From a virus (Duplodnaviria > Caudoviricetes): DNA of 64,000 nucleotides. The translations under genes were made by a program, and so were the position numbers. This document shows positions 7,086 to 60,912 of this stretch, one piece after another (position 1 is the stretch's first letter; each line of letters starts with the position of its first letter). A model generated the notes under the pieces. The model was given only the letters and a program-made list of their open reading frames with translations. It searched no databases and was not told the origin of the DNA. The DNA is taken from IMG/VR virus record IMGVR_UViG_3300025120_010521. The stretch is one strand, 5' to 3'.

Positions 7086-8009
7086 TTAAAATGTAAATTT
7101 AAGACCAGTTGAATAACTGTCAGTATCTACTGTAGATCCTGTATTATCTGAATGTTGATATTCAACATACGTTGATAATGATTCAGTTACTCCGTAAGAT
7201 AATCCAGCAGTGTAGTATGCAGTTGAATCTTCAACTTTGCCATAACCACCAGTTAGTTTTGCACTACCTGTGGTATATGAAGCAACTACTTCATTGCCAG
7301 TTACATCTGTTGCGGCATCTTTTTCAGTATATGTGTAACCAAGTGTTACAGGCATACCTAAAGATGAAGCATCTGCGGTTATACCAACACCATAGTAATA
7401 TATGTCATTTACTTCATCACTTGACATACCTCCTGATGCTGTTATTACGCCGGCGTCATATGTTACTGTACCTTCCGATACATCAACACCATCTTTACCA
7501 GTTGAGCCATCTATTTTGACTAACCCATCAAATGTAAGTGCACCTATATTATTACTATAGGCAATTGTGTTTGTATCACGTGTGAACAAATTTTGATCAG
7601 CACTTGAACCATACACTTCAAATACATCTGTATGACCACTTACATTGTCTGTAAATGGAGATGATTGACGACCCGCTGACAACGATCCTACAGGACCAAA
7701 ATTTAAACCAACAAGGGCCAATCTTGAATCCAACGGATTATTATTCGAATCATCAGCATCAATACCAAATTCAACTTTAGCAAAGCCTGTTATGCCTTCG
7801 CCAATGCCTTCTTCAGCATCAATACCAATAAACGATGAGTTATTTTCAGCTTTCATATATGAATTACCGCTTGAATTTTCATCGTTGCTAACTTTATAGT
7901 TAATTGAACCGTAGATATTAACTTCGGCTTCAGCTTCACTACAAGCTGTCAATGAGAACGCCATTGCTATTCCAAATATAAATGCTATGCTTATATATTT
8001 TCTCATCAT
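7086..8009 (-). CDS. Outer-membrane porin (general diffusion type)
   Basis: Signal peptide, N-terminal VNIYGSINY, G..SAGRQ, alternating beta strands, C-terminal GLKFTF. Confidence 0.88.
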   Translation of the reverse strand: MMRKYISIAFIFGIAMAFSLTACSEAEAEVNIYGSINYKVSNDENSSGNSYMKAENNSSFIGIDAEEGIGEGITGFAKVEFGIDADDSNNNPLDSRLALVGLNFGPVGSLSAGRQSSPFTDNVSGHTDVFEVYGSSADQNLFTRDTNTIAYSNNIGALTFDGLVKIDGSTGKDGVDVSEGTVTYDAGVITASGGMSSDEVNDIYYYGVGITADASSLGMPVTLGYTYTEKDAATDVTGNEVVASYTTGSAKLTGGYGKVEDSTAYYTAGLSYGVTESLSTYVEYQHSDNTGSTVDTDSYSTGLKFTF

Positions 8010-8894: not shown

Positions 8895-10334
8895 TTAAAT
8901 ATTATGTTTTGTTTGGCTTTGTTTTACCCAATTGTTAAACATAGTTTGTGGGTCTGTTTGTTCTTTTAAGCCTTTTCTTACCATACCCATTACACTTGGT
9001 TTAGTAATGATTTTTGATAATTTCATTACAACATCAATTACATCATCTTTGTAACTGATTGGTAAGTCTTTGCCGTTTGCAAGTGTACGCATAGCAGTTT
9101 TAAATCTTGATACTTTGTTTTTTGGTACCATGCCTTGTCTTGCTAACATATCAAGTTTTGATAAATCTTGTTGCGAAAGTGATTCTGCCAATGCTCTTGA
9201 AAGTAAATTTGCTTTGCCTGGATTATTAAGTGCTTTTGCAACTTTTAAAAGCAAAGGTTGTAGTGCTTGTTGTCTTGTTGGATCAATATTATTACCTGAT
9301 GCTAATTTTTTAATTGCAACCATAGTTGTCGCATTTGCATTTGGGTCTGTTTTTTTAAGTAAATCTAATTTTACTTTAATATCTTTAGCATCTTCCGGTG
9401 ATGCATCTGGTGTTGCTTTTGTACGTGATTGTTTTGCCGCCATTGCTTGTTTAATTCCTGGAGTAATAGCATCTTGATCAACATTTGCATTTGCATCTGG
9501 TTCAACATCCATACCATGATTTGTTTTAAACCAACCTTTGACCTGTGCCGCATCTGGGTCACTTTGTTTAAATTGTAAATAACTTTTCCAAACATCATTA
9601 GCAACTTGACCAATGTTTGCTTCAGCATCTGCTTTAGTTTTCATATCCCCTAAACCAGGAACTTTGCCTACAACTTTTTTTGCTTTGTTAACTGCTTTTT
9701 TAATAGCACCAAATGGTGCCTCATCAACTGATTCATCTTTGATTAATTCTTCTTGATGCCTTGCAAGTTCTTCTATCGAATCAAAAACACCTGTCATCTT
9801 ACCATTTTTATATGAATAAAATTTTCCTTTATGATTTCTAGCTGACAGTCCATATTTGTTCATACTTGTTTGCGATGACCCATCTTCAAGTAAACCTAAA
9901 TCATCAATCCTATCTGCAATCCAAACATCTGGATCTCCTTCTCTGGCTTTCATAATACCATATGGCATTTCGCCTGAATTCATATAGTAACCAAATAATT
10001 CATCATACACTTCAGATCCATATTCAATATCATCTGTGCTTTTAATATTGTGTTTGATTAATATTGCTTTGATTGTGTTATATTCAGTTGATTCATTTAA
10101 ATCTTTTTTCATTTGTTCTTTTGATTTGCTGTATTTCTTTTGAAACTCTTGATCTGATAATGTTTTAATATCAGCATCTATGTCTGACATTCTACCTTCA
10201 TTTTTGTTAGGCTTGCCATGTTTGTTGTGTTGAGCCCATGCAATGGCGTATGGTGCACCTGGATCGTCAAACTTCTTTTTTAGTTTTTTAACTTGTTTTT
10301 CTCTTCCTGGTGGTGCTATTTCGCTAAATTTCAT
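8895..10334 (-). CDS. Modular putative virion internal protein
   Basis: N-terminus MKFSEIA; short modules separated by ...KNE/LNE/LLE/VDE/LAE/LKE; SD GTAGGAG. Confidence 0.65.
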   Translation of the reverse strand: MKFSEIAPPGREKQVKKLKKKFDDPGAPYAIAWAQHNKHGKPNKNEGRMSDIDADIKTLSDQEFQKKYSKSKEQMKKDLNESTEYNTIKAILIKHNIKSTDDIEYGSEVYDELFGYYMNSGEMPYGIMKAREGDPDVWIADRIDDLGLLEDGSSQTSMNKYGLSARNHKGKFYSYKNGKMTGVFDSIEELARHQEELIKDESVDEAPFGAIKKAVNKAKKVVGKVPGLGDMKTKADAEANIGQVANDVWKSYLQFKQSDPDAAQVKGWFKTNHGMDVEPDANANVDQDAITPGIKQAMAAKQSRTKATPDASPEDAKDIKVKLDLLKKTDPNANATTMVAIKKLASGNNIDPTRQQALQPLLLKVAKALNNPGKANLLSRALAESLSQQDLSKLDMLARQGMVPKNKVSRFKTAMRTLANGKDLPISYKDDVIDVVMKLSKIITKPSVMGMVRKGLKEQTDPQTMFNNWVKQSQTKHNI

Positions 10335-10354
10335 TGTGTACTCCTACTTTATAT

Positions 10355-10606
10355 TTATCGCTTTAACATAGGATATATGTCTTTTACTTTGGTTCTATAT
10401 GCTAGTGTATCTGCACTATACCCCATTTGTGCTATATTTTTGTGTTTTTTACGTGCATTTTTAAAAATTTTACCAAATGGATCAACTGCTTTACGGGCCT
10501 GTGCTTTTGTAGTACCTGGTGTTATTGGAAATGCAATTGTGGCTATATTACCACTTGCTGTTGAACCTGCAGTTGCATCTTCTGTTATAATGTCATTTAT
10601 ACGCAT
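10355..10606 (-). CDS. Small putative internal protein
   Basis: MRINDIITE followed by a basic mature region. Confidence 0.6.
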   Translation of the reverse strand: MRINDIITEDATAGSTASGNIATIAFPITPGTTKAQARKAVDPFGKIFKNARKKHKNIAQMGYSADTLAYRTKVKDIYPMLKR

Positions 10607-10620
10607 AAAGATATTTATCT

Positions 10621-10845
10621 TTAACTTAACTTTTTCTTAATCCATAATACAAGTGCGTACACAGTAATTGCGTACACTGTAGCAACACCAATATCTAATA
10701 AGTGTTCACGCATATGATATATAAATTCAATACCTGCTTGTACATCGCCCATATTACCAGTTGATGTCGTTTGCATTATTTCAACATTACCGGCACCGTC
10801 ACCGATATTAATTTCTTTTCCACTGTATGGATTATCTTCTGACAT
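10621..10845 (-). CDS. Small membrane protein, C-terminal TM helix
   Basis: IGVATVYAITVYALVLWIKKK. Confidence 0.7.
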   Translation of the reverse strand: MSEDNPYSGKEINIGDGAGNVEIMQTTSTGNMGDVQAGIEFIYHMREHLLDIGVATVYAITVYALVLWIKKKLS

Positions 10846-11042
10846 TATTTTTTTCTCCCTGACTTCATGTTAGCACACCAGTGATACATTTTTGCTTTTT
10901 CTCCTGATGCTTTTTTAGCCTTTGCTCTTAGACTAGTAACTGATCCTTTGCAACTTGCTCCTGAACGTTTTACTCTACCAGGACGTGATTTACCTTTTTT
11001 CTTGCCATCAGCAAAATTTTCTGTTAGTTCTATGTATCTCAT
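10845..11042 (-). CDS. Small basic putative internal protein
   Basis: MRYIELTE followed by a K/R-rich, two-Cys module. Confidence 0.65.
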   Translation of the reverse strand: MRYIELTENFADGKKKGKSRPGRVKRSGASCKGSVTSLRAKAKKASGEKAKMYHWCANMKSGRKK

Positions 11043-11440
11043 TTTTTGTACTTGTTACTAACGTTTTTTGCTTTGCCTTTTCTATCTGGATTTGAATCTT
11101 TTCTGCGTTTTCTATTTACTGCTTGAGCTATTGCTTTCTTACCGCCTTTGGATCTTAACGAAGACGCTCTTGCTTTTGATAAACATTTTGGCTTGCCTTC
11201 ACCTGATTTCGAATCACCACATTTGCCAATTCTTTCGCCTTTGGTGTTGTAACGATCCCAGCCACCGCCACCTGCGCCACCTTTTTTGCCTTTGCCAAAC
11301 CAAGCACGTAGATCTTCTTCTACGTTTTCTTGTGCTTCTTTTTTTACACAGTTAGGAACACGTTTTCCAAATAACATTTTTGTGCCTTTTTTCTGGTAAC
11401 CCTTCCAGCACTTCTCATCTAATAACTCAATTAGCTTCAT
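11039..11440 (-). CDS. Two-module basic putative internal protein
   Basis: MKLIELLDE-KCWKGY...PNCVK; VEE-DLRAWFG...GKPKC. Confidence 0.65.
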   Translation of the reverse strand: MKLIELLDEKCWKGYQKKGTKMLFGKRVPNCVKKEAQENVEEDLRAWFGKGKKGGAGGGGWDRYNTKGERIGKCGDSKSGEGKPKCLSKARASSLRSKGGKKAIAQAVNRKRRKDSNPDRKGKAKNVSNKYKK

Positions 11441-11631
11441 TACTTTTTACTCTTATTTCCCCAATTCTTAGCACCAACTTTTCTGCATTTTACTAGAGCA
11501 CCGCTGGCGTAAGCTGACGGCCACACTTTATAACGTGATTTAACTTTATGATAACAAGCATCTTTCTTTTCAGCAAGTGTATCAAACTCATCTTCTGTAA
11601 GTGCTTTTAATTTAATTTCATTTATTCTCAT
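11440..11631 (-). CDS. Small basic putative internal protein
   Basis: MRINEI...LAE-KKDACYHKVKSRYKVWPSAYASGALVKCR. Confidence 0.65.
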   Translation of the reverse strand: MRINEIKLKALTEDEFDTLAEKKDACYHKVKSRYKVWPSAYASGALVKCRKVGAKNWGNKSKK

Positions 11632-11645
11632 AATGTCTCCTAATA

Positions 11646-12356
11646 CTAATATTTACCAAATGCCCAATATTTTTCTTCACACCACCAACATGTTTCACAA
11701 GGTGTAACATAGCCGTTAGTTTCTTGTGATTCACCTTCACAAGACCATGTTAACGGCAATAACGTATTAATTAACCCGTGTTGCTTATACATATCTGCAA
11801 CAAATTTCTTATCTGTATTAAAAAATGGTCGCATACCCATACCATCATCTTGTATAACTACGTGATTAAGGTCTGGATTTCGTCTATCTACTTGATCAGT
11901 GTCATGCGACATTGTTGTATGTGGTGGGTTAGATGTTATACCATCATACAATACATCCCATGTTCTAATTTCAAAATTATTTTTATCTCTATCTGTAAAT
12001 TCTTTTAATTCAGTTTGATGGGCATCATTTAAATCTGGATAATAAATTACATGATCTTTCATGTTCTTAAAATTTAAAAGTTCAATAACTTTGTTTATAA
12101 CTTGAGATGCTTTTACAGGATTCCATGGGCGTTGTCGTCTGACTGACATTGGTTGCACTTTAATATTTAAGTTTTTATCTTGTACTTGTTTACAAAGTAA
12201 ATATAGTAACAAACTAGAATCTGCTCCACCAGAACACCATATACCCAATGTGTTTACTTCGCGAGTGTTGTTTGTAAATTTAGGAATTACTATATCAATT
12301 GATTCAGACTTATTTGTATTATAATACGTTTGTCTTGTTAATTCTTGCCATTTCAT
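11646..12356 (-). CDS. QueC-like PP-loop ATPase
   Basis: CSGGADS PP-loop; TWSCE...CETCWWCEE Zn-like motif; start at MKWQEL (ATGA overlap with the SOD stop). Confidence 0.65.
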   Translation of the reverse strand: MKWQELTRQTYYNTNKSESIDIVIPKFTNNTREVNTLGIWCSGGADSSLLLYLLCKQVQDKNLNIKVQPMSVRRQRPWNPVKASQVINKVIELLNFKNMKDHVIYYPDLNDAHQTELKEFTDRDKNNFEIRTWDVLYDGITSNPPHTTMSHDTDQVDRRNPDLNHVVIQDDGMGMRPFFNTDKKFVADMYKQHGLINTLLPLTWSCEGESQETNGYVTPCETCWWCEEKYWAFGKY

Positions 12357-12997
12357 CTTCCCATCCTTAGGTTGATTTGATTCCAATCAATAATAGTCAT
12401 TATACTTTTAATGTATTTTGCTTTTGCATCTTTGGCAGGAATATAATCCGTAAATGAATGTTCCCACATATCAATTGGCATTAGTATGTCTGACTTGTAA
12501 GATTGATTTGGTGTTGTTTTAAGTTCGCCTGACTTACTTAAATATACCCAACCACTACCTTGTATGGTCATTGCTGTAGCAATCATTTCTTCTGTAAATG
12601 AATTAAGATCGCCAAATCTGTGTTCAATTAATTCTTTAATGGCACCATCTGGTTTTGATCCATCTGCTTTTTGCAGTTGTTCCCAGAATAGGTTGTGTAG
12701 CATTGCACCACCATAGTTAAAATCTGGATCACCTTCTTTGTTATTATATCTTGTTACGTATCCGTTTGATAATATGTTGTAGTGATATTCTACATTGTCT
12801 TTAGATAGCACTGGTGCTAAATCTTTTGTTTCATAAGCCAACTTTTTTAGTTCTAGTTTTTGTGGTTTTGACTCGTTCATAGATAGTTTCATCCTTTCAT
12901 GATGTCTTCGTGCAAACTCTTTGCGAGGATTTGGCATTTGTATAAAATGCGGATTCTCGCCAATGCCTGCTAGTTGTTTTAATCTTGCTATATCCAT
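12353..12997 (-). CDS. sod: Fe/Mn superoxide dismutase with N-terminal leader
   Basis: EYH...Y, LHNLFW, IQGSGW, DMWEH metal-ligand motifs; about 40-aa leader MDIARLKQLAGIGE. Confidence 0.85.
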   Translation of the reverse strand: MDIARLKQLAGIGENPHFIQMPNPRKEFARRHHERMKLSMNESKPQKLELKKLAYETKDLAPVLSKDNVEYHYNILSNGYVTRYNNKEGDPDFNYGGAMLHNLFWEQLQKADGSKPDGAIKELIEHRFGDLNSFTEEMIATAMTIQGSGWVYLSKSGELKTTPNQSYKSDILMPIDMWEHSFTDYIPAKDAKAKYIKSIMTIIDWNQINLRMGR

Positions 12998-12998
12998 A

Positions 12999-15830
12999 TT
13001 ATTTTATAGCAACTTGGTAAGCCATACCACGTTGCTTTTGTCCTCTTACATAAGTATCGCCAATTGTTACAAATTGCATTAATGCTTCTGTTGGTTCATC
13101 AATTGATATTGTTTGTACTCCATCACTTGATAATCTAACTAATAACATAGAATGTAATCCTTGTTTAACTTTATAACTTTGGAAAGCAATTTTTCCAAGT
13201 TGTAAAGGAGAAACATTTGGATAGTTTACAACTGCACTGTCAATTAACCCATCGTCAGCACTTTGATATGCTGTCTTTAATACTAATTTAAAAATTTGTT
13301 TTTGTTGTTCTGATGTTAACGGATTATTTGGATCCTTAGCATATTGCGGATCACTTAATACTTGAGCTAAATGTGGTTGTTTAACTCTTGTTGTTTTTCC
13401 TGGTAGTGTCCTAACACCAGCAGGAACTAATTCTTTATTTAATAAACTATCTGGTCTATTTAAATATGTTTCTAAAGGAGTATCATCATATGCTGTCCAT
13501 CTGCCTCCGCCGCCTGAACTAGTAGATGCTTTAGCTTTAACTTCAATTAATTTACCGCCCCATTTTAAATCGTAACCAGCATCTGGTGACGTTCCAACTG
13601 TAATTTTTCTGTGGAAAGCCGCTAGTGCAACTTCGCCTGGACCAGCTTCACCGGCAAATTTTCCTTGCAATTGAGGATCGTTAATCATTTTTTGGAACAT
13701 TACTGAAGCAATGCCTGATCCTGTCCACCAATCGTCCATAGATTTAACATCACCACTGCCATCAAATAAAATTTCTGGTTTAATATAATTTTGTCTGCCA
13801 AATTCTTTTAGAAATTGAATTTTGGTTGGTATTGGAACTTCCATATCAACTATTATTTGCGATAATCTATTAATAAATTGTTTAGCGTCACTATCCTTAC
13901 CAAAAGCAAATTTTACAATGTTTCCAATATTTCCTGAACGTAAGATACTTGCAACTTTATTTAAAAGTTTTGGATTATCAGTTTTTTGTATTCTTGTTAT
14001 TATTTGTTTTTTTAAAGTATCTGGATCAACTTCGTCTTCTTTTATCATGCCATGTTTAATTAAAAGTTTTTCTAACTGTTCTTTGACCGGTAGCATGTAA
14101 TGATTCTTTCTGCCTTTGGTCAAGTATGAAAGTGTACGCCAAGTTTTAAACCAATCTTCTGTGCCTGGTTTTGATGTTGCTTTCATTTTTTGATGCATTT
14201 CTGTACCTGGATGTGTTAACAAGCTCATTTCGCCGCCATCATTTTGATATGGAACCTCAGCTGGATTTGATATTGTTTTTTTAGCTTCTTTTACTAGATG
14301 ATTAATACTTTTTTTAATTCCTTGCAAATCCATTTGTTGTTGTAGTGTTAAGTCTTTGTTTGAGCCATTAATTTTAATTAATGCTTCTTGCATACGTTTT
14401 ACACGTCTTAAATTTTTTGGTGTCATTATTGGTGGTACTCCATCTTTAGTTACTTTAAATCCAAATTTAGCTGACTGCTTTTTGATTGCATCAACACCAA
14501 CATCATGTGTAGTGTTTATGCCCTTAACAACTCTGCCACCATGTTCTGTTAAATTATTTTTTTCTTTGAAGTCTTTTATACTGTTTTGTACTTTTGACAA
14601 TGGATCTTCATCTGCTTGATACTTAACACCATAACCTCCACGTTGTAGCCAACCTTGTATATTTCTTCCTCTATCATCAATTAGTATATTTTGTGTTCCA
14701 TCTGATTGTACAGCATATGAATCTTTTCTTCCAACAACAATAATTTCATCTGGTTGTATAGCAAGTTCTCTTTTAATCCATTTAATCTTTTGTACTTTTG
14801 AATTTTCATGGTCACCTCTCAACGGAGATGATAATATTTTGTAACTACCAAATTCTTTTACAATCATTTGTATTAATTTGTCTGTAGTTGGAAATTTTGG
14901 TAATCTATTAAAAAAATCTGTACCAATCATTTTATCTAATGTTGGATCTGTTTTAGCAGGTGGAATATCTTTGTAATTTCCTGTAGTTACTCCTGCAAGT
15001 TTGGCATACTCGGCAAAAAAGTTTGCAAGTACTCCATCCATATCAACATAAGCGATTGGTTTACTTTCTGGTGCTTCTAGTTTTGCACTTTCATTAATAT
15101 CATATGATTTGCTTTTGTGTTTTGTATAACCTCTTTTGTCTAGTGCTTTTTTATCTTTGTGTGATCCTGCCGCACCGCTTTTTCTAATGGCTTCCATGTC
15201 TTTCCAATTTGGATCACGTGATTTGATATCTGGTTTCTTTGGCATCTTTGGTTTATTTGCCATTTCCATAATTCCCATACCTTGTCTTACTTTTGTGTAC
15301 AATTGTTGTTTTAATTTTTCGCCACCATCAATAGTTTGTGAAAATGTGTTAAAGTCTCCTGCTTTTGCAAGTGCTCTTGCCTTAGATGCTGACACACCAG
15401 ATACATCAGTAGCATCTGCATCTCTTTCGCCTGAACTTACTATTGAAAATTTCTCAATACCAAAATCTTTAAGATATGGTCTCATTTGTGATTCAAAGTC
15501 TTGTTTACGATCAGAACCAACTACCATAATAACTTCGTTATATTGTTTACCTAATTCTTCTAATGCTTCCCACGGTGTACGAATTGCTGGATCGTCCATA
15601 ATATTCATATGTGGAAACATTGCTCTTAAGAATGTAATTTTATCTTTGTACTGTAATGGATTTTTTTTTGGATCATTAGTTTTACCTGTAAACACATAAT
15701 GGTCTGCACCGCTAGATGCATTTTTTACAACATCCATTAATCGTGCATGTCCTTTAGTTGGAGGATTAAATCTACCAAATGTAAACACTGCCTTTTTTGC
15801 GTTTGGTTCTAATAATTCATTTATGTCCAT
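12999..15830 (-). CDS. Multidomain protein: cytidylyltransferase-like + HAD 5'(3')-nucleotidase-like + PD-(D/E)xK nuclease-like
   Basis: TFGRFNPPTKGH and VVGSDR; YVDMDGVLANF and LIDD; GPGEVALA...YDLKWGGKLIEVK. Confidence 0.75.
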   Translation of the reverse strand: MDINELLEPNAKKAVFTFGRFNPPTKGHARLMDVVKNASSGADHYVFTGKTNDPKKNPLQYKDKITFLRAMFPHMNIMDDPAIRTPWEALEELGKQYNEVIMVVGSDRKQDFESQMRPYLKDFGIEKFSIVSSGERDADATDVSGVSASKARALAKAGDFNTFSQTIDGGEKLKQQLYTKVRQGMGIMEMANKPKMPKKPDIKSRDPNWKDMEAIRKSGAAGSHKDKKALDKRGYTKHKSKSYDINESAKLEAPESKPIAYVDMDGVLANFFAEYAKLAGVTTGNYKDIPPAKTDPTLDKMIGTDFFNRLPKFPTTDKLIQMIVKEFGSYKILSSPLRGDHENSKVQKIKWIKRELAIQPDEIIVVGRKDSYAVQSDGTQNILIDDRGRNIQGWLQRGGYGVKYQADEDPLSKVQNSIKDFKEKNNLTEHGGRVVKGINTTHDVGVDAIKKQSAKFGFKVTKDGVPPIMTPKNLRRVKRMQEALIKINGSNKDLTLQQQMDLQGIKKSINHLVKEAKKTISNPAEVPYQNDGGEMSLLTHPGTEMHQKMKATSKPGTEDWFKTWRTLSYLTKGRKNHYMLPVKEQLEKLLIKHGMIKEDEVDPDTLKKQIITRIQKTDNPKLLNKVASILRSGNIGNIVKFAFGKDSDAKQFINRLSQIIVDMEVPIPTKIQFLKEFGRQNYIKPEILFDGSGDVKSMDDWWTGSGIASVMFQKMINDPQLQGKFAGEAGPGEVALAAFHRKITVGTSPDAGYDLKWGGKLIEVKAKASTSSGGGGRWTAYDDTPLETYLNRPDSLLNKELVPAGVRTLPGKTTRVKQPHLAQVLSDPQYAKDPNNPLTSEQQKQIFKLVLKTAYQSADDGLIDSAVVNYPNVSPLQLGKIAFQSYKVKQGLHSMLLVRLSSDGVQTISIDEPTEALMQFVTIGDTYVRGQKQRGMAYQVAIK

Positions 15831-15977
15831 TTATCTTCTTTTGCCTTGTCCGTTATATTGTTTATAAGAACGTCTTTTGGATTTATTCATCGATGACATT
15901 TTTAATCTGCCACGACCAATTGTTGTTCTTTTTGCTACATGGTTGATTGTAGACTCTTGTCCCATCATCTTTGCCAT
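15831..15977 (-). CDS. 48-aa very basic protein (below track cutoff)
   Basis: MAKMMGQESTINHVAKRTTIGRGRLKMSSMNKSKRRSYKQYNGQGKRR fills the gap between two ORFs exactly. Confidence 0.75.
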   Translation of the reverse strand: MAKMMGQESTINHVAKRTTIGRGRLKMSSMNKSKRRSYKQYNGQGKRR

Positions 15978-15978
15978 A

Positions 15979-16350
15979 TTATGCTCCTATTTTTAAATTT
16001 ACTTCACTGTACTCATTATCATCCATCTTTTGTAATTCATCATCAGCAATTGATTTAGCCGCTAAATTTCTCACAAGTCCTGGAAACTTAACTCTTGCCA
16101 TTGGACCTGCTTCTTTTTTAGCTACGTTATCAATTAAGTAACGCCATAATTTAATTGCTAGATTATGATCGTAAACACCTTTAGCACGTTTACGCATAAG
16201 ATTTTTAATAATTGGCATATATTGACTTCTATAAAGATCTCCATCATTTGTTGCTAATAATTCTAACTCATCAGCAAGATCTTGAACTTTAGTAGGGTCA
16301 ACAGTACCTTCTTGTACTTCTAGTAAATAATCTTTAAATTGTCTAGTCAT
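15979..16350 (-). CDS. Putative internal protein
   Basis: MTRQFKDYLLE N-terminus; own upstream promoter motifs. Confidence 0.6.
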   Translation of the reverse strand: MTRQFKDYLLEVQEGTVDPTKVQDLADELELLATNDGDLYRSQYMPIIKNLMRKRAKGVYDHNLAIKLWRYLIDNVAKKEAGPMARVKFPGLVRNLAAKSIADDELQKMDDNEYSEVNLKIGA

Positions 16351-16412
16351 AACTAATTCCTAATAGTATTGTATATACTAGTGTATTTATACTGTCAAGA
16401 AAAATTAGAAAC

Positions 16413-16979
16413 TTAATTAAATGTGATATATTCGTCTTTATTAGGCTTTACATCATCATCATTAGTTGAATTTCCAGGTTCTGTTCCTGGAGTCTCTATT
16501 TCTTGCTGTAATATTGGATTCCAAAACGTTCCCATATTTGGACCTGCATATCCTACACCAATAGCTAAATTAATATCATCACCATGATAGCATCCACAAA
16601 ATCCTATATCAAGTCCATAATTTACTGCTGATGTAACTGTAAACATTGCCGCCAAGCCAATTTCCATTAATGAATTGCTGTTTGCTCCTTCATCACCACT
16701 ATCTCTATATGAAAAAGTAAACAAGTACGGAGCCATTACTTGAGGATTGCGTCTATCTTCCGGAGAATCAACATCACACCAAGTATTTTTAAATATTTGA
16801 TTTCGTTTTTCTGGATTTGACCAATCTAAAACTTCAATTTTGTATGGAACTGCGTTTTGCTTACTTGGACAATTATTGTGTACTTCATCTAATATTTGAT
16901 TAATAATGTTACGATCAGGAACTTTGTTAGACCAACTAAACGTTTGCTTTTTGTTTTTAAGTATATCTTGCCAATCCAT
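16413..16979 (-). CDS. Nitroreductase-like protein
   Basis: KQTFSW...PDRNIINQIL...CPSKQN..PY and A...GLDIGFCGC pattern. Confidence 0.5.
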   Translation of the reverse strand: MDWQDILKNKKQTFSWSNKVPDRNIINQILDEVHNNCPSKQNAVPYKIEVLDWSNPEKRNQIFKNTWCDVDSPEDRRNPQVMAPYLFTFSYRDSGDEGANSNSLMEIGLAAMFTVTSAVNYGLDIGFCGCYHGDDINLAIGVGYAGPNMGTFWNPILQQEIETPGTEPGNSTNDDDVKPNKDEYITFN

Positions 16980-17017
16980 ATCTATATAAATCCCTATATA
17001 GTATATTTATAATTGGA

Positions 17018-17611
17018 TTATCCCCATGGCTTCTTATCAAGGTCAACTGTGATACCTTGTGCTTTTAACCCTTTTATTACGTTTTGTACACCAACTACCT
17101 GTCTAAATGTGTCATGTAGTGCATGGTGCTTGTCTGCTTGTGGCATTTGTGCTTGGATTCCAAAGCCAAACAATGTTCTAGTATCTCTTATGTCGTAATA
17201 ACTCCATGGAACTCCAACTTCCATTTTACGCATAATATTGTCAACAATCATTAAATCAAAGCATGATCCATGGCTCCAAGGACGTTTTACACCAAATGAA
17301 AACTTACGCAACTCTTTCATTGCGTCTTGTATTGTGATCCTATCACCGTTGTCACCAAATGCTTCATCTTGTGCTTCTTTTGATTGTGTTGACCACCAAT
17401 TGATTGTTTCTTCGTTGACTTTACACCCAAGTGCTGTGCATGAATCTAAATCAATTCTTCTGTACATAACTTGATGTGGTGGAAGATCTGAAACTTTAAT
17501 TTTGCTATAATCTGCGTGTGGATCAAATCTAATTGCGGCCATAGTAACAATTGCCGCATCGTTAGATGTAGCTAGAGTTTCTAAATCAATCATTAAATCT
17601 GTGTTTGCCAT
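17018..17611 (-). CDS. DEDDh 3'-5' exonuclease (Rv2179c-like)
   Basis: LMIDLETL, WSHGSCFD, IRDTRTL, HHALHD. Confidence 0.85.
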   Translation of the reverse strand: MANTDLMIDLETLATSNDAAIVTMAAIRFDPHADYSKIKVSDLPPHQVMYRRIDLDSCTALGCKVNEETINWWSTQSKEAQDEAFGDNGDRITIQDAMKELRKFSFGVKRPWSHGSCFDLMIVDNIMRKMEVGVPWSYYDIRDTRTLFGFGIQAQMPQADKHHALHDTFRQVVGVQNVIKGLKAQGITVDLDKKPWG

Positions 17612-17617
17612 ATTTTT

Positions 17618-17645
17618 ATTATAGCATCAATTAGTTATTTGTAAA
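17618..17645 (-). promoter_or_regulatory. Sigma70 extended -10 promoter, leaderless
   Basis: TTTACA-16-TATAAT with TGC before the -10; 6 nt to ATG. Confidence 0.65.
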
Positions 17646-17650
17646 GAGGT

Positions 17651-18292
17651 TTATTCTTCTGATTTGTCTTTATATTGCCATTCGTCAGTGTGTCCAACTG
17701 ACCATTTAGGTTCATTTTCAACTGTATAATTTTGTGTACAAACTTTAAAGTCTGGCATTTTACGATCAGGATGTACTAGACTTTGGTCTGTAAATATAGT
17801 TCTATTGTTTGGCTGTGCCGCAAACTGTCCATTGTCTAGTTTAATAAAATTAAATGACTTATGCTCTGGATCATGTTCTGAAAAATTTGTATTAAGTGTA
17901 TTATTGTCTCTATGACAAGTATCAAGTGTAAAAATGTATTCGCCTTTGTGCATATTTTTGTCTTTACCAAAAAATTGACAATCAGCTAACATTGGCTTTT
18001 TAATTACTGTAATATCGTAATCAAAACAATCCCATATTTGTAATGTATCTAAAGGAAGTTGGTTATCTTTGTCGTAGTCTATTTTCCAGACGAATGCTGA
18101 AATTGGAAGTTTATCATATAATGCACCATATTCTGTTAGTAGTGTTTCTATGTATAATGCTTTACCCATTATACTTCTAATTGATATCCAAACTCCAGGT
18201 GTTAGTTCACCATGACCTTTTTGTAGATCATAAAGATATTCTTTTTTTACATATACTTCAATTGGTGGAAGATTGTGTACTAGGAAGCTCAT
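17651..18292 (-). CDS. Conserved marine-phage hypothetical protein
   Basis: HNLPP..VYVKKEYLYDLQKGHGE; QFAAQPNNR; familiar by eye, function unknown. Confidence 0.7.
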   Translation of the reverse strand: MSFLVHNLPPIEVYVKKEYLYDLQKGHGELTPGVWISIRSIMGKALYIETLLTEYGALYDKLPISAFVWKIDYDKDNQLPLDTLQIWDCFDYDITVIKKPMLADCQFFGKDKNMHKGEYIFTLDTCHRDNNTLNTNFSEHDPEHKSFNFIKLDNGQFAAQPNNRTIFTDQSLVHPDRKMPDFKVCTQNYTVENEPKWSVGHTDEWQYKDKSEE

Positions 18293-18304
18293 CCGATGCC
18301 TCCG

Positions 18305-19417
18305 TTACCATGCTCTGCAACTCCAGTAACGAGCTTTCGTTCTTGGACCTGGATTTGAGCAATTATGTCTTGCACGGAATGATTTTCTACGTGCTGGGTT
18401 TGATTTTTTAATACGCATTGTTTTTGAATCTTTGTTCTTGCCGCCACCTTGGTGACCAAAGCGTACCATTTTTACGTTTCCTGTTTTAGGATCTTTTACA
18501 TAAACTTTAAATTTACCTGGCTCATCTGTGCCAGTTCTGATTGGCTTACTTAACTTAACTGTTTTGCCTTTGTACTTGGCTTCAAATGCTTGACCAAAAG
18601 TTCGTGTATTTTCAGCAACACCAAAACCTACAATATCTTCACCTAAGATCTTTGCCGCTTCTGTACAGTTGTCTTCATCAATTTCTGATACACCCATAAC
18701 TTTCATAAATTCTTGGTGCATAGATTTAGTAATTGGCATCATAGCATAAAAAGGTTCTAATCCTTTTTCAGTAACAGCATCTTGACCGTACTTTGATGTA
18801 ACGTTATTGTATTCGTTAATTTCAGCACCATCTGAAAGTATACCAGTGTCTATATAACCTTTTAACATTCCTGCTGGTAATTCGTCTCCGTTGCTTCCTT
18901 CATAATTTTTGTACTTGTTGTACCAAGCCTCTAATGCTGACTTATCAACTGCTTCATTAACATCTTGTTCGTTGTTATCAAAACCTGCTTGTACCATTTC
19001 ATATTCTAAATAATCTTTTACCACTTTTAAGTAATCTGATGCTTTGGTTAGTTTTGATGCTACCCAACCTTCGATACCTTGACGTTCAGAAACCTTTTGC
19101 AACATATCATGAACTGCTTTTGCGTTTTTCATTGCATGGTACATTTGTGATTTGCCCATGTTGACTTCATGGTCTTGTTCTTGTGATTCTTGCTCTTGTG
19201 GTTCTTGTTCCATTTCGCAACCACATGCTTCTTCTAAATCTGAAATAAATTTTAATGCTTTGTCATCTGCTATTACAGTAACAGAGTTTTCATCAATTTT
19301 TTCAATCACTGTTGAAATTAATGCTGTGCTTTCGCCAAACTCAAGATCAATTGCATCACCAACTTGTGGTTTTAGCTGTTCTGATACAATATCAATGTAT
19401 TTTCTTATATCTTGCAT
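18305..19417 (-). CDS. Modular putative internal protein
   Basis: MQDIRKYIDIVSE; acidic modules, then FE-AKYKGKTVKLSKP...RKSFRARHNC...ARYWSCRAW basic module. Confidence 0.65.
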   Translation of the reverse strand: MQDIRKYIDIVSEQLKPQVGDAIDLEFGESTALISTVIEKIDENSVTVIADDKALKFISDLEEACGCEMEQEPQEQESQEQDHEVNMGKSQMYHAMKNAKAVHDMLQKVSERQGIEGWVASKLTKASDYLKVVKDYLEYEMVQAGFDNNEQDVNEAVDKSALEAWYNKYKNYEGSNGDELPAGMLKGYIDTGILSDGAEINEYNNVTSKYGQDAVTEKGLEPFYAMMPITKSMHQEFMKVMGVSEIDEDNCTEAAKILGEDIVGFGVAENTRTFGQAFEAKYKGKTVKLSKPIRTGTDEPGKFKVYVKDPKTGNVKMVRFGHQGGGKNKDSKTMRIKKSNPARRKSFRARHNCSNPGPRTKARYWSCRAW

Positions 19418-41534: not shown

Positions 41535-41718
41535 GAGGAAATGAATAAATTCCTAGTGTTTGGATATCTGGATATCTTAATTTTACAATAACATATTGTT
41601 CATCAGTTACTGCAACAATACTATCTGCGTGATTAGGAATATAAGTTCTTGGAATTGTTTTATCTTGTGAAAACTTTTCATGTCGATCGTAGTCTTCGTA
41701 TCCAACTAACGTGTACAC
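41518..41718 (-). CDS. Hypothetical protein
   Basis: ORF track. Confidence 0.55.
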   Translation of the reverse strand: MYTLVGYEDYDRHEKFSQDKTIPRTYIPNHADSIVAVTDEQYVIVKLRYPDIQTLGIYSFPLDYFK

Positions 41719-42326
41719 TACCTGCTTTCAACAATTTTATCAATTAGGCCAAACTCTAATGCTTGATCCGGATTCATGTAATTATCACGTTCCATTGCAT
41801 CTTCGACTGTTTTAAGATCTTTACCACAGTGTTTTACATACAGGTTATTTAATCTTTTCTTTGTATCTAAGATATCTTTTGCATGTATTTCAATATCTGT
41901 TGCTTGTCCTTGAAATCCTGCTGATGGCTGATGTATCATTATTTTTGAATTTGGTAATGATATCCTTTTACCAGGTGCTCCTGCCATTAGTAACAATGAC
42001 CCTGCACTTGCAGATAAACCAATACTTACTGTTGATATATCAGGTTTTACATATTGCATAGTATCATACATTGCCAACCCTGCTGTTACCGAACCGCCTG
42101 GCGAATTGATATACATGTAAATGTCTTTATCTTTAGAATCTGATTCTAAAAATAATAATTGGGCACAAACTAAACTTGATGTTGCATCATCAATTGGGCC
42201 AGTTATAAAAATAATTCTTTCTTTAAGTAAACGTGAAAAAATATCGTAACTTCTTTCACCTCTTGACGATTGTTCAACAACCATTGGTACTAGATTCATA
42301 TTCATCTCCTTAGACATTAAATTCAA
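41718..42326 (-). CDS. clpP: ATP-dependent Clp protease proteolytic subunit (true start probably MNLVPM, 42299)
   Basis: [36 protein letters not shown]. Confidence 0.96.
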
Positions 42327-54047: not shown

Positions 54048-54404
54048 TTATCTCCTTTTGACTTTTTTCTTTGGAGTGCCGTATTCAGCCGCCTCGGCTT
54101 CTTTCCTTAATTTAAAAGCTCTTCTTATTGCACGTTTTTTATCTTCACGTTTTACAAAAGATGGCTTCATGTAGTATCTTCTATCACGAAGTTCTTGCAT
54201 GACTCCTTCTTTTAATAACATCTTTTTAAGTTTACGCATAGCTTTTTCAACGTTGTTGTCAACAACTGCAACAGCCATACCTGGTAACTTAGGTGGACGT
54301 GGTCTTCTCTCTTTGAAATCTCTTTTGTTAGAATTAGAATTATATTCTATATCAAAAGATTTTACATCAATTTTTTGTCTAGGTTTTCCTGTTTTCATAT
54401 TCAT
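54048..54404 (-). CDS. rpsU: 30S ribosomal protein bS21 with basic N-terminal extension
   Basis: NNVEKAMRKLKK...EGVMQELRDRRYYMKPS..KR. Confidence 0.88.
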   Translation of the reverse strand: MNMKTGKPRQKIDVKSFDIEYNSNSNKRDFKERRPRPPKLPGMAVAVVDNNVEKAMRKLKKMLLKEGVMQELRDRRYYMKPSFVKREDKKRAIRRAFKLRKEAEAAEYGTPKKKVKRR

Positions 54405-54413
54405 AATACTCTT

Positions 54414-54441
54414 ATATTAACATCTTTACAATATTTGTCAA
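54414..54441 (-). promoter_or_regulatory. Sigma70 extended -10 promoter of rpsU
   Basis: TTGACA-16-TAATAT preceded by TGT. Confidence 0.55.
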
Positions 54442-54998
54442 CTCTTTTTTGTATCACTATCTTTATCTTTAGTAATAACAGCTATAATTCTGTTTCCAGC
54501 TTGTTTTGGTGGTGAATCATATTTAGTTTGCTCTAATTTTTTAACCATCATATTAATTTGATCAATGAACATTCTGCCGTTTGGTATTTCTCTACCTCGT
54601 AGCTTCATAACTATTTTTACCTTATCTCCATCGTTAATAAACTCTTGAGCTTTTTTAAGTTTAACATTAAGATCATGTACATCAATATTTGGCCTAAATT
54701 GTAATTCACGTAACTCTATTCTATTTTGTCTTTCAAGTTTTTTCTTTTGCTTGTCTTTTTTTTGTTTTTCATAGTTCCATTTTCCAAAATCCATAATACG
54801 ACATACAGGCGGATCAGCTTTTACTGTTGTGCATATAAGATCTAAATTACTTTCTTTTGCTTTTGAAAGTGCTGTTTTATTATCAACTATTCCAATAAAT
54901 GCTCCATCTGGGTCAATAAGTCTAACTTTTGGAAATGTAATTGCTGAATTTAACAATACACTTGGTTGTTGATTTCTGTAACGAAATGGTTTTTTCAC
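54438..54998 (-). CDS. infC: Translation initiation factor IF3
   Basis: VRLID, DPPVCRIMDFGKWNYE, ELQFRPNIDVHDLNVK, KVKIVMKLRGRE; ATG start. Confidence 0.93.
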   Translation of the reverse strand: MKKPFRYRNQQPSVLLNSAITFPKVRLIDPDGAFIGIVDNKTALSKAKESNLDLICTTVKADPPVCRIMDFGKWNYEKQKKDKQKKKLERQNRIELRELQFRPNIDVHDLNVKLKKAQEFINDGDKVKIVMKLRGREIPNGRMFIDQINMMVKKLEQTKYDSPPKQAGNRIIAVITKDKDSDTKKS

Positions 54999-60489: not shown

Positions 60490-60912
60490 CTACTCTTTTA
60501 TAGATATACTCATAGAACGACATGATCCTTCTACCTGAGCCATTGCTTGTTCTATAGTAAAAGCATTCATATCTTCCATTTTTTCTTCGGCTATTTTTTT
60601 AATTTGTGCTTTAGTAATATACTTAATTGTATTACGCCCTGGTGTTTTACCACCTTTTTTAAGACCAACTGCTTTTAATATAAAATATGTAACAGGTGGT
60701 TTATTGAGAGTAAATTTAAAACTCTTGTCTTTATAAACTGTAATTAGACAAGGTATTGGACCTTCTAAGGCTTTTGTTTTATCATTAAAGCTCTTACAAA
60801 ATTCCATTATATTAACACCACGTTGACCTAGTGCAGGTCCAACTGGTGGGGCTGGTTTAGCCTGTCCAGCCTCTATTATTAATTTCAGAGTACCAGTTAC
60901 TTCTTTTGCCAT
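60490..60912 (-). CDS. rplK: 50S ribosomal protein uL11
   Basis: [29 protein letters not shown]; ITVYKDKSF; KPP; GSCRSM. Confidence 0.95.

What the first reader, a model, noticed from the sequence alone, without database searches (positions are those of the whole stretch)
8895..19417. Cluster of genes with T4 capsid-targeting-like N-termini: a candidate virion-packaged payload system
Seen: otherwise unrelated proteins begin with similar short leaders. Eight share M-[KRD]-hydrophobic-x-[ED]-[ILF] or a close match: MKFSEIA (10334), MRINDIITE (10606), MRYIELTE (11042), MKLIELLDE (11440), MRINEI..LTE (11631), MKWQEL (12356), MDINELLE (15830) and, more loosely, MTRQFKDYLLE (16350). MQDIRKYIDIVSE (19417) and MDIARLKQLAGIGE (12997) are looser still. 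After a Glu the sequence usually switches to a basic or enzymatic module, and several of these genes have TAAATA just upstream. Established: T4 internal proteins carry an MKTYQEFIAE-type capsid targeting sequence that the gp21 prohead protease removes after Glu. Inference: this is an expanded internal-protein arsenal (DNA-binding peptides, SOD, QueC-like enzyme, nucleotidase, nuclease) loaded into the head and injected.
Basis: partly seen in the sequence, partly recalled or inferred. Interest (0 to 1): 0.85.

Follow-up and report, generated by a model that had tools for sequence, protein, structure and literature searches.

The report
Capsid-targeting-like leaders on phage cargo proteins
A marine giant T4-type phage puts the same short N-terminal tags, each ending in a protease-type hydrophobic-x-Glu site, on many unrelated late proteins, which most likely loads DNA-binding peptides and enzymes into the capsid, as T4 does with its internal proteins.

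Summary
In the window, the motif M-[KRD]-hydrophobic-x-[ED]-[ILF] starts 8 of 99 minus-strand ORFs. All 8 lie at 8895-16979.

- In a complete 328-kb relative it starts 13 of 448 ORFs, against 0.6 expected.
- The similarity is in the peptide, not the DNA.
- The phage population encodes a T4-type head module about 60 kb upstream, including a gp21 (Peptidase_S77) homologue.
- Two small proteins at the gp67/gp68 position of that module carry the same leader.
- In relatives the cargo modules are split, fused and reordered. Whichever module comes first carries a leader, and internal junctions keep hydrophobic-x-Glu. For one basic module, the preceding residue is Glu in 115 of 116 homologues and P3 is hydrophobic in 101.
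- Phage SOD homologues carry one of three interchangeable N-terminal tags. One tag copies the conserved C-terminal tail of the scaffold protein.
- Cyanophage homologues of the cytidylyltransferase domain start with T4-like leaders, and mass spectrometry has found them in virions.

Packaging, cleavage and injection remain unproven. The QueC-like and nitroreductase-like members are weak, and the exonuclease has no tag. First readers of this scan noted similar features in other genomes, but none of those notes had been checked. Verdict: a new variant of the T4 capsid-targeting system.

The parts
8895..10334 (-). 479-aa Lys-rich protein of unknown fold, leader MKFSE|IAPPGRE. Candidate large internal protein.
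   Evidence: Strict motif. ATAAATA at 10352-10358. Orthologues start MKFSEIAPPGRE (L001) and MRIHEVAPPGRE (G006). No Pfam, PHROG or Atlas family.
10355..10606 (-). 83-aa protein, leader MRINDIITE|DATAGSTASGNIA.
   Evidence: Strict motif with I-T-E at residues 7-9. ATAAATA lies 5 nt before the ATG. Orthologues start MRIIDIITE (L001) and MKIGDIITE (G006). Its N-terminus gives the second-best pair in the all-against-all comparison, with an unrelated 70-aa protein that starts MKINDLISE.
10845..11042 (-). 65-aa very basic Cys-containing peptide, MRYIELTE|NFADGKKKG. Candidate DNA-binding internal protein.
   Evidence: 858 metagenomic homologues. The residue before the module is Glu in 115 of 116, P3 is I/L/V/F/M in 101, and P2 is variable, while the upstream contexts are unrelated. 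Its leader is nearly identical to that of the unrelated 66-aa head-module protein MRYIELKE.
11039..11440 (-). 133-aa basic protein, MKLIELLDE|KCWKGY, followed by a DSNPDRKGKAKNV module.
   Evidence: phrog_727. The same modules occur inside the cyanophage S-RIM8 gp114 polyprotein, which lies between the small and large terminase genes; there the module follows F-Q-E|KCWKGY.
11440..11631 (-). 63-aa basic protein, MRINEIKLKALTE|DEFDTLAE|KKDACYHKV..WPSAYASGALVKCRK.
   Evidence: phrog_727, E = 2e-25. 75-90% identical module in 366 phage records, almost all cyanophages. In L001 the module is fused behind another module.
11646..12356 (-). 236-aa PP-loop (QueC-like) ATPase, starts MKWQELTRQ. Weak candidate; the match is probably coincidental.
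   Evidence: SGGADS PP-loop and phrog_1550. Homologues have variable N-termini with no leader consensus. Some have hydrophobic-x-Glu just before the conserved YYN.
12353..12997 (-). 214-aa Fe/Mn superoxide dismutase with a roughly 45-aa N-terminal extension that starts MDIARLKQLAGIGE (the 'LAG tag').
   Evidence: Pfam Sod_Fe_C, E = 3e-19, and Sod_Fe_N. Of 120 homologues, 65 carry the LAG tag, about 35 carry a DIRxYIDIVE-type tag, 15 carry the M-K/R-phi-x-E/Q-phi leader, and the rest are truncated. The tag matches the conserved scaffold C-terminus.
12999..15830 (-). 943-aa polyprotein. Order: leader MDINELLE|, cytidylyltransferase/NMNAT-like domain (about 9-189), basic DPNWKDME module, NT5C 5'-nucleotidase (about 258-405), GGRVVKGINTTHDVG module, then a C-terminal region with a D...EVK (PD-ExK-like) motif.
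   Evidence: Pfam PF01467 and PF06941. Hydrophobic-x-Glu at residues 189, 247, 423/429 and 598 coincides with gene or module boundaries in relatives. Residues 426-466 align to residues 5-45 of the L003 712-aa protein, directly behind its leader. It is 40% identical to S-SCSM1 ORF91, a virion protein that starts MKSFLQFLKE (PMC9602691).
15979..16350 (-). 123-aa protein with a T4-like 10-11-residue leader, MTRQFKDYLLE|V.
   Evidence: Orthologues start MTKQFKDYLLE (L001), MTNKTFKDYLAE (L003) and MTDKTFKDYLKLVE (G006). ATAAATA at 16384-16390 probably drives the operon down to 10621.
16413..16979 (-). 188-aa nitroreductase-like protein, starts MDWQDILKNKKQ. Weak candidate.
   Evidence: Matches the strict motif but has no hydrophobic-x-Glu within 16 residues. 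Pfam nitroreductase is below the cut-off. The G006 orthologue starts MDWQQILKNKKQ.
18305..19417 (-). 370-aa protein with the third tag class, MQDIRKYIDIVSE|Q, and a basic C-terminal module (phrog_7595).
   Evidence: The same DIRxYIDIVE-type tag heads about 35 of 120 phage SODs. Proteins with the same C-terminal module in relatives start MRDLLEKLKLLE or MTNKTFKDYLAE. ATAAATA lies 5 nt before the ATG. The Glu is not kept in the L001 orthologue.
17018..18292 (-). Two genes inside the range with no tag: an Rv2179c-like 3'-5' exoribonuclease (17018-17611) and a 213-aa protein (17651-18292). Not part of the tagged set.
   Evidence: PF16473, E = 1e-30. The N-termini MANTDLMIDLE and MSFLVHNLPP are conserved as part of the fold in relatives.

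Best explanation
The cluster is a late-expressed, fast-evolving cargo locus of an uncultured marine giant T4-type phage. The inferred mechanism runs as follows.

- Each cargo precursor starts with a short N-terminal propeptide that ends in hydrophobic-x-Glu. There are three such forms: an 8-9-residue form M-[RK]-phi-x-E-phi-x-E, a T4-like 10-residue form M-K-x-F-x-[ED]-Y-L-x-E, and a DIRxYIDIVE form.
- The propeptide docks the precursor onto the scaffolding core of the prohead.
- The gp21-type prohead protease then cuts after the Glu. It also cuts at the same kind of site between modules of polyproteins such as the 943-aa protein.
- The released products stay with the DNA and probably leave with it. 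They are basic Cys-containing peptides and enzymes: an NMNAT-like cytidylyltransferase, a 5'-nucleotidase and a PD-ExK-like domain.
- The SOD uses a different tag, which copies the scaffold protein's conserved C-terminal tail. By inference it is loaded through the site that this tail binds.

What is shown: the tags, their enrichment, their conservation across shuffled architectures, the protease gene and the late-promoter-like boxes.

What is inferred: docking, cleavage, retention in the head and injection.
For: 1. Enrichment. 8 of 99 window N-termini, all in the cluster. 12 of 185 against 0.3-0.5 expected. 13 of 448 against 0.64 expected in a complete relative. The independent PSSM test gives 19 against 2.2 expected and 11 against 0.9 expected.

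2. Selection on the peptide. Codons vary synonymously and the flanks are unrelated.

3. T4-type head machinery in the same phage population.
- Portal (PF07230), Peptidase_S77, scaffold-like protein and Gp23 are present.
- The protease matches T4 gp21 (5JBL) at E = 2e-15, with the DHP His and SSRG Ser in place.
- The capsid protein matches T4 gp23 at about 1e-42. It has L-M-E, V-L-E and L-A-E sites in the residues before the part that aligns with mature gp23*.
- The protease itself starts MIKPLLE|S.

4. Two small proteins at the gp67/gp68 position carry the leader: MKIYEIS...PIEE| and MRYIELKE|.

5. Relatives at 35-45% identity have the same run of tagged genes, although the domains are split, fused and reordered.

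6. The junction rule for the NFADGKKKG module: Glu at P1 in 115 of 116 homologues and a hydrophobic P3 in 101 of 116, in unrelated upstream contexts. The same holds for the GG.VV.G.NTT.DVG module.

7. One enzyme family (SOD) carries three interchangeable tags.

8. Experimental cross-links from the literature.
- T4 CTS MKTYQEFIAE and cleavage after Glu: PMC8442874, PMC9026906, PMC5694885.
- NMNAT/cytidylyltransferase proteins detected in virions of S-CBWM1, S-SZBM1, S-SCSM1 and S-CREM2: PMC9602691, PMC10665884.
- S-SCSM1 ORF91 is 40% identical to residues 17-191 of the 943-aa protein and starts MKSFLQFLKE|AAES.
- The S-SM1 homologue starts MKKFSAFLNE|AE.

9. Tagged proteins elsewhere in the genome match PHROGs annotated as virion structural proteins: phrog_13484, phrog_14802 and phrog_14154.

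10. ATAAATA boxes, of the same type as those before head genes, precede the cluster's transcription units.
Against: - There are no proteomic, N-terminal or structural data for this phage. Cleavage and packaging are inferred by analogy.
- Hydrophobic-x-Glu is a short motif. About a quarter of unrelated N-termini have one within 16 residues.
- The Glu before a module could be part of the module's own fold.
- One fused homologue has T-N-E rather than a hydrophobic P3.
- Some split genes in relatives lack a leader, for example MKNQKTIKTRDPNW in L007 and L008.
- The G006 orthologue of the polyprotein has Gln, not Glu, at position 8.
- The L001 orthologue of the 370-aa protein lacks the Glu.
- The authors of the cyanophage virion proteomes themselves caution that abundant proteins may co-purify with virions (PMC10665884).
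- The head module was read from overlapping contigs of near-identical strains, not from the window's own record.
Confidence: 0.62

Rival explanations
1. The leaders are real N-terminal signals that serve another purpose. The main candidate is recognition by the phage's own ClpXP, as N-terminal degrons of the Met-basic-hydrophobic type, or by another chaperone or assembly factor. In that case they would time protein turnover rather than load the capsid.
For: The window encodes ClpX (54998-56254; Pfam zf-C4_ClpX and AAA_2) and ClpP (41718-42317). A second CLP_protease gene lies upstream. From general knowledge, one class of ClpX N-terminal recognition motif begins Met-basic-hydrophobic. No direct evidence of packaging exists.
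Against: - Cyanophage homologues carry the same leaders and are found in virions (PMC9602691).
- The leader sits on proteins inside the head module.
- The conserved Glu with a hydrophobic P3 also marks internal module junctions, which a terminal degron does not explain.
- One alternative tag on the SOD copies the scaffold's tail.
Confidence: 0.12
2. The hydrophobic-x-Glu junctions and leaders are processing sites of the prohead protease or another protease, but the products are scaffold-like assembly factors. They would be degraded and expelled during maturation, like T4 gp22, gp67 and gp68, rather than retained and injected as a payload.
For: T4 cuts most core proteins into small peptides that leave the head (PMC8442874). 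The same leader occurs on proteins at the gp67/gp68 position. Nothing here shows retention or ejection.
Against: - Intact enzyme domains with preserved catalytic motifs would be a costly scaffold. These include the SOD ligands, the nucleotidyltransferase FGRFNPPT motif and the HAD DMDGV motif.
- NMNAT-like homologues are detected in mature cyanophage virions (PMC9602691, PMC10665884).
- The basic peptides resemble T4 internal proteins, which are retained.
Confidence: 0.15
3. The shared N-termini are a by-product of translation-initiation constraints (A-rich codons after the ATG) or of recombination joints used when gene cassettes are shuffled. On this view they have no function as a peptide.
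For: Codon 2 is usually AAA, AAG, AGA or CGT and the region is A/T-rich. The cluster is clearly mosaic.
Against: - Synonymous codons differ and there is no DNA-level repeat.
- The pattern is specific to hydrophobic residues at positions 3 and 6 and acidic residues at 5 and 8. It is absent from 85 other genes in the same window with the same base composition.
- It is kept at 35-45% protein identity.
- It recurs as internal junctions.
Confidence: 0.05

Closest known systems
Bacteriophage T4 capsid targeting sequence (CTS) of internal proteins IPI/IPII/IPIII and Alt, removed by the gp21 prohead protease
   Same: - A short N-terminal propeptide shared by otherwise unrelated proteins.
- Alternating hydrophobic and acidic residues that end in hydrophobic-x-Glu.
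- A gp21-family protease, gp22-like scaffold and gp23 capsid protein in the same genome.
- Cargo that includes small basic proteins and an enzyme.
- A cargo locus that varies between close relatives.
- T4-type late-promoter boxes.
- Some leaders (MKTFKEYLVE, MTRQFKDYLLE, and MKSFLQFLKE in cyanophage) match MKTYQEFIAE almost position for position.
   Different: - The main leader is a shorter 8-9-residue form (M-R/K-phi-x-E-phi-x-E).
- Two further tag classes exist.
- Cargo is often a multi-module polyprotein with the same site at internal junctions.
- There are many more candidate cargo genes, including SOD and an NMNAT-like/nucleotidase fusion.
- The mature parts share no sequence homology with the T4 internal proteins.
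- Nothing has been tested experimentally.
Proteolytic maturation of inner-body and ejection proteins in phiKZ-like giant phages (phiKZ gp175, 201phi2-1, SPN3US gp245)
   Same: A gp21-related protease cuts many head proteins after Glu at a three-residue motif. Long precursors are cut at several sites, and a large protein cargo is packaged with the DNA (PMC5694885, PMC9026906).
   Different: - The motif there is S/A/G-x-E or A-x-E rather than a hydrophobic P3.
- Propeptides there are often longer than 100 residues.
- It is a different phage lineage, with no T4-like late promoters or gp22/gp23 synteny.
- No short shared N-terminal leader has been described there.
Virion-associated NMNAT/cytidylyltransferase proteins of T4-like cyanophages (S-SCSM1 ORF91, S-CREM2 ORF154, S-CBWM1, S-SZBM1)
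   Same: They are homologous to the N-terminal domain of the 943-aa protein (40% identity). They lie in a small block of non-structural 'virion proteins' and start with a CTS-like leader.
   Different: In cyanophages the domain is a separate 390-410-aa protein, not part of a 943-aa polyprotein. The papers do not mention a leader or processing, and they leave the mode of packaging open.
Cargo-loading peptides of encapsulins and scaffold C-terminal coat-binding tails (for example P22) - compared for the LAG tag only
   Same: A short terminal peptide shared between the shell-organising protein and its cargo. It occurs only at protein termini.
   Different: Here the peptide is N-terminal on the cargo and C-terminal on the scaffold. 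The binding partner is unknown. There is no homology, so this is a comparison of mechanism only.

Membership tests
T4-type CTS / internal-protein system | A short N-terminal propeptide of shared pattern on otherwise unrelated proteins | tested here: met
   The mature parts are unrelated: for example the 65-aa and 66-aa proteins share only MRYIEL[KT]EN.
T4-type CTS / internal-protein system | The propeptide ends in (L/I)-x-E, the gp21 cleavage motif | tested here: met
   L-T-E, I-T-E, L-D-E and L-L-E at residues 8-13 in the well-supported members. P1 is Glu in 115 of 116 homologues and P3 is hydrophobic in 101 of 116 before the basic module. Not met for the 236-aa and 188-aa proteins.
T4-type CTS / internal-protein system | A gp21-family prohead protease with a gp22 scaffold and gp23 capsid protein in the same genome | tested here: met
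   PF03420, PF07068 and PF07230 in L031. PDB 5JBL at E = 2e-15 and T4 gp23 at about 1e-42. PF03420 at E = 2.4e-27 in the complete relative G006. Read from contigs of the same population, about 60 kb upstream of the window.
T4-type CTS / internal-protein system | Actual cleavage after the Glu, and presence of the mature protein inside the head | not testable with these tools
   Only indirect support: homologues detected by mass spectrometry in cyanophage virions (PMC9602691, PMC10665884), and PHROG 'virion structural protein' matches for other tagged proteins.
T4-type CTS / internal-protein system | Late transcription together with head genes | tested here: inconclusive
   ATAAATA boxes lie upstream of five cluster genes and of head genes. 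The box is depleted elsewhere and strand-biased. No expression data.
T4-type CTS / internal-protein system | Sequence homology of the mature proteins to T4 IPI, IPII, IPIII or Alt | not tested
   No Pfam or PHROG match to internal-protein families appeared. No direct comparison with T4 sequences was made.
Fe/Mn superoxide dismutase (for 12353-12997) | Both SOD domains and the four metal ligands | tested here: met
   Sod_Fe_C at E = 3e-19. Sod_Fe_N at E = 2e-9, covering only the first half of the profile. The His in EYHY and in MLHNLFW, and the Asp and His in DMWEH, are visible in the translation. Activity not tested.
QueC / PP-loop ATPase as tagged cargo (11646-12356) | A leader conserved in homologues | tested here: not met
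   68 homologues have variable N-termini with no leader consensus.
ClpX N-terminal degron | An N-terminal Met-basic-hydrophobic motif that acts only at a free N-terminus | tested here: inconclusive
   The first three residues fit. The conserved Glu positions and the internal junction sites are not explained.

The most novel reading that the evidence does not exclude
This widespread marine phage lineage may use a small code of at least three interchangeable terminal address tags to load cargo into the capsid. One of them, [DE]-phi-x-x-L-[KR]-K-LAG-[IL], copies the conserved C-terminal tail of the scaffold protein. Cargo such as SOD would then be loaded by mimicking the scaffold's contact with the shell or portal. 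That would be a capsid-loading route independent of the T4 CTS and comparable to encapsulin cargo-loading peptides. The polyprotein junctions would let one address tag carry several cargo modules.
Probability: 0.35. Interest if true: 0.8.

Novelty: new variant of a known kind. Interest (0 to 1): 0.68.

Why it matters
If these tags work like the T4 CTS, three things follow.

- Capsid contents could be read from sequence for a large, abundant group of uncultured marine phages and for T4-like cyanophages. This one module family alone has 858 metagenomic homologues.
- It would give a mechanism for the repeated but unexplained detection of 'non-structural' enzymes such as NMNAT in cyanophage virions.
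- It predicts that enzymes such as SOD and nucleotide-metabolism enzymes are delivered at the moment of infection.

The tags would also be short, portable handles for packaging foreign proteins into marine phage capsids. The prediction can be tested directly on cultured cyanophages, partly by re-analysing existing virion mass-spectrometry data.

Tried and rejected
- **Whole genome.** No whole genome is held for the window. An exact look-up of the 120-aa protein at 63497-63859 found nothing. I instead walked about 60 kb upstream through seven successful exact-protein look-ups.
- **Head genes in the first relatives.** PF03420 and PF07068 were not found in the first five relative contigs, which are only 10-33% complete fragments. 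This says nothing about absence. The controls for those searches also contained no positives.
- **Megablast of the region against phage records.** Only a tRNA matched.
- **tblastn of the 65-aa protein against cultured phage records.** No match.
- **Complex prediction of the scaffold-like protein with the 65-aa tagged protein.** No answer: score 0.00, and the controls were not run. It counts neither for nor against binding.
- **Protein Atlas.** The 479-aa protein and the C-terminal half of the 943-aa protein matched only unnamed viral clusters. Restriction-endonuclease families appeared only at lead level, score 0.77.
- **LAG motif in cyanophage.** The S-RIM8 scaffold C-terminus lacks the LAG motif, so that tag is specific to this lineage.
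- **Local tblastn of the window's small proteins against 49 kb of S-SCSM1.** Only the NMNAT homologue matched.
- **Explanations considered and rejected.** DNA repeats or cassette joints; chance; a secretion signal (the leaders are short and acidic).

Full report
**Observation**

The region holds 15 co-oriented minus-strand genes. The strict pattern ^M[KRD][ILVFMWY].[ED][ILF] starts 8 of the 99 minus-strand ORFs I called in the window. All 8 lie at 8895-16979, and none of the other 85 match.

The window has no genome on file. I therefore chained overlapping contigs of the same phage population by exact-protein look-ups into a 128.6-kb pseudo-genome joined through exact overlaps.
- There the pattern starts 12 of 185 ORFs, counting the 83-aa ORF that the first gene call missed.
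- Composition predicts 0.3-0.5, and only 2 of 933 internal Met residues are followed by the pattern.

Three further tests guard against a motif defined after the fact.
- An unsupervised all-against-all comparison of N-terminal 8-mers puts two leader pairs at the top: MRYIELKE with MRYIELTE, and MKINDLISE with MRINDIITE. The proteins in each pair are otherwise unrelated.
- A PSSM trained only on metagenomic homologues of one family picks out 11 of 185 N-termini here (0.9 expected) and 19 of 448 in a complete 328-kb relative (2.2 expected).
- In that relative (G006, terminal repeats, 100% complete by CheckV) the strict pattern starts 13 of 448 ORFs, against 0.64 expected. Eleven of the 13 lie in the 200-323 kb late region.

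Leaders use different synonymous codons and have unrelated upstream DNA, so the similarity is in the peptide. ATAAATA is depleted in the window (22 sites, 48.7 expected), and 20 of the 22 are on the coding strand. It sits just upstream of the 479-, 83-, 123-, 188- and 370-aa genes, as it does upstream of head genes.

**What the phage is**

The genome is about 330-380 kb (G006 is 328 kb; CheckV rates a 92-kb relative 24% complete). About 60 kb upstream of the window lies a T4-type morphogenesis region.
- It includes gp13- and gp15-like proteins, sheath and large terminase.
- The head module runs in this order: portal (PF07230), a 158-aa protein, a 116-aa protein, a 66-aa protein, an acidic 316-aa protein, Peptidase_S77, a 367-aa scaffold-like protein, and Gp23.
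- The protease matches T4 gp21 (PDB 5JBL) at E = 2e-15. The His of GEADHP and the Ser of VSSRG are in place, and it starts MIKPLLE|S.
- The capsid protein matches T4 gp23 at about 1e-42. It has L-M-E, V-L-E and L-A-E in the 41 residues before the part that aligns with mature gp23*.
- The 116-aa and 66-aa proteins sit where T4 has gp67 and gp68. They start MKIYEISKTDLYSLEPIEE and MRYIELKE, which are the same leader as in the cluster.

**Comparative evidence**

Ten related contigs, one at 84% and nine at 35-43% identity, carry the syntenic block.
- The domains there are split, fused and reordered. Gene after gene still starts with the tag: MRFAEIE, MRFRELKE, MLLRHLTE, MKIRELFE, MRAHQFISE, MRAYQFLTE, MRIFEVVE, MKLSELFAE, MTNKTFKDYLAE.
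- The basic module NFADGKKKG... follows a leader directly in the window and in L010. In L006, L007 and L008 it ends 206-457-aa fusions. In each of these it is preceded by hydrophobic-x-Glu. The 266-aa L001 fusion is the one exception, with T-N-E.
- Among 116 metagenomic cluster representatives, the preceding residue is Glu in 115 and P3 is I/L/V/F/M in 101. P2 takes 16 different residues, and the upstream sequences are unrelated.
- The 943-aa protein has such sites at residues 189, 247, 423/429 and 598. These are the borders of the cytidylyltransferase, basic, NT5C and following modules, and relatives have gene boundaries at the same places.
- Its residues 426-466 (LTE|HGGRVVKGINTTHDVG...) align with residues 5-45 of the L003 712-aa protein (LKE|NGGLIVPGVNTTVDVG...). 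The same module is thus internal here and sits directly behind a leader there.

The SOD gives the clearest swap. Of 120 representatives of this phage SOD family, 65 start with MD[LI]xxLK[KR]LAGI, and about 35 start with a (M)xDIRxYIDIVE-type peptide. Fifteen start with M-[KR]-phi-x-[EQ]-phi-phi-E, and the rest are truncated.

The LAG peptide also ends the scaffold-like protein. That tail is conserved in 24 scaffold homologues down to 46% identity, while the residues just before it vary. Elsewhere in these genomes it occurs mainly at protein termini: the C-terminus of a 775-aa protein and the N-terminus of a 103-aa protein, plus two looser internal matches. It is absent from a cyanophage scaffold.

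**Links to experiments**

T4 internal proteins carry the roughly 10-residue CTS MKTYQEFIAE. It is cut once by gp21, and the leader suffices to package foreign proteins. Residues 4 and 7 matter for targeting, and residues 8 and 10 for processing. All characterised gp21-family proteases cut after Glu (PMC8442874, PMC9026906, PMC3012670, PMC5694885).

The N-terminal domain of the 943-aa protein is homologous to the 'cytidylyltransferase/NMNAT' of T4-like cyanophages.
- That protein has been detected by mass spectrometry in virions of S-CBWM1, S-SZBM1, S-SCSM1 and S-CREM2. The authors could not say how it gets there (PMC9602691, PMC10665884).
- S-SCSM1 ORF91 is 40% identical and starts MKSFLQFLKE|AAES. 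Neighbouring 'virion proteins' there are basic and start MDSKTFNSLSE|A and MTHLNDISKVYME|K.
- The S-SM1 homologue starts MKKFSAFLNE|AE.

The window's small basic modules recur inside S-RIM8 gp114, a 591-aa basic protein between the small and large terminase genes. The next gene there starts MKSYNEFISE. Three tagged proteins elsewhere in this phage match PHROGs annotated as virion structural proteins. I found no paper that links capsid targeting sequences to cyanophages or marine phages.

**How solid each member is**
- Well supported: the 65-, 133-, 63- and 83-aa proteins, the 943-aa polyprotein and the 123-aa protein.
- Supported through tag-class evidence: the SOD and the 370-aa protein. In the 370-aa protein the Glu is missing from the L001 orthologue.
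- Moderate: the 479-aa protein. Its leader is conserved as M[KR]xxE[IV]APPGRE in relatives.
- Weak: the QueC-like PP-loop protein, whose homologues have no leader consensus, and the nitroreductase-like protein, which has no Glu site.
- Not tagged: the Rv2179c-like exonuclease, the 213-aa protein, the 74-aa membrane protein and the 48-aa basic peptide.

The cargo set differs between close relatives. G006 lacks the SOD and the QueC-like gene but has other tagged proteins. T-even internal-protein loci are known to vary in the same way.

**Mechanism and rivals**

The best reading (0.62) is a T4-like system. The tag docks the precursor to the prohead core. The gp21 homologue cuts after the Glu at the leader and at polyprotein junctions. 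The basic peptides and enzymes then stay with the DNA.

Rivals:
- Processed but expelled assembly factors (0.15).
- A different function of the tag, such as recognition by the phage's own ClpXP (0.12).
- Translation or recombination by-products (0.05).

None of the rivals explains all of the following together: the head-module members, the internal junction rule, the tag swaps on SOD and the virion detection of homologues.

**Limits**
- There is no direct evidence of cleavage, packaging or injection.
- The head module comes from near-identical strain contigs, not from the window's own record.
- My ORF calls are crude.
- A complex prediction of scaffold with cargo gave no answer.
- First readers of this scan noted the same kind of tags, polyproteins and a tagged SOD in other genomes. 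Those notes were unchecked, and I used them only as leads.

Noticed in passing
window 12953-12997 (SOD N-terminus); L031:14404-15507 (scaffold C-terminus); L024:2782-5109 (775-aa C-terminus); L026:7280-7591 (103-aa N-terminus): The motif [DE]-phi-x-x-L-[KR]-x-LAG-[IL] occurs mainly at protein termini. It forms the conserved C-terminal tail of the scaffold-like protein in 24 homologues down to 46% identity. It is also the N-terminal tag of 65 of 120 phage SODs and of 66-72-aa proteins in relatives. It may be a second capsid-loading signal that mimics the scaffold.
   Followed up: partly
window 10355-10606, compared with L031:13233-14402: After its leader, the 83-aa protein reads DATAGSTASGNIATIAFP. 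This resembles the capsid protein just after its L-A-E site (AATTGATGAGNVAALNKV). It could be mimicry of the capsid protein's N-terminal arm, or chance.
   Followed up: no
G006:C1:318715-319011 (L112): In the complete relative, a 98-aa cluster protein has the leader MRILEIISE followed by a twin-arginine-like signal (NDRRDFMKRLGKTAAATAGAL). This could be cargo meant for export in the host after delivery.
   Followed up: no
window, whole (22 sites; for example 10352, 10612, 16384, 17004, 19423): ATAAATA is less than half as frequent as expected (22 against 48.7). It lies on the coding strand 20 times out of 22, mostly just before genes. Several sites are only 5 nt from the ATG, which fits a T4-type late promoter that may yield near-leaderless mRNAs.
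   Followed up: partly
window 41718-42317, 54048-56254, 60490-60912; L022:8434-9039: The phage encodes ClpP (two genes), ClpX, IF3, and ribosomal proteins S21, L11 and an L33-like protein. It also encodes a porin (7086-8009), UvdE and RpiB (Pfam labels).
   Followed up: no
L015:4756-6531 (Synechococcus phage S-RIM8 gp114): This 591-aa basic protein lies between the small and large terminase genes of a cultured cyanophage. It strings together at least five of the basic modules that are separate small genes in the window. It is a natural test case for polyprotein processing.
   Followed up: partly
L007:2554-3927 compared with L037:31627-31836 (S-SCSM1 ORF93): A module in a relative's tagged polyprotein (AVSKKQQKFFG...KHKGLPEKK) resembles S-SCSM1 ORF93, a 69-aa protein detected in virions.
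   Followed up: no
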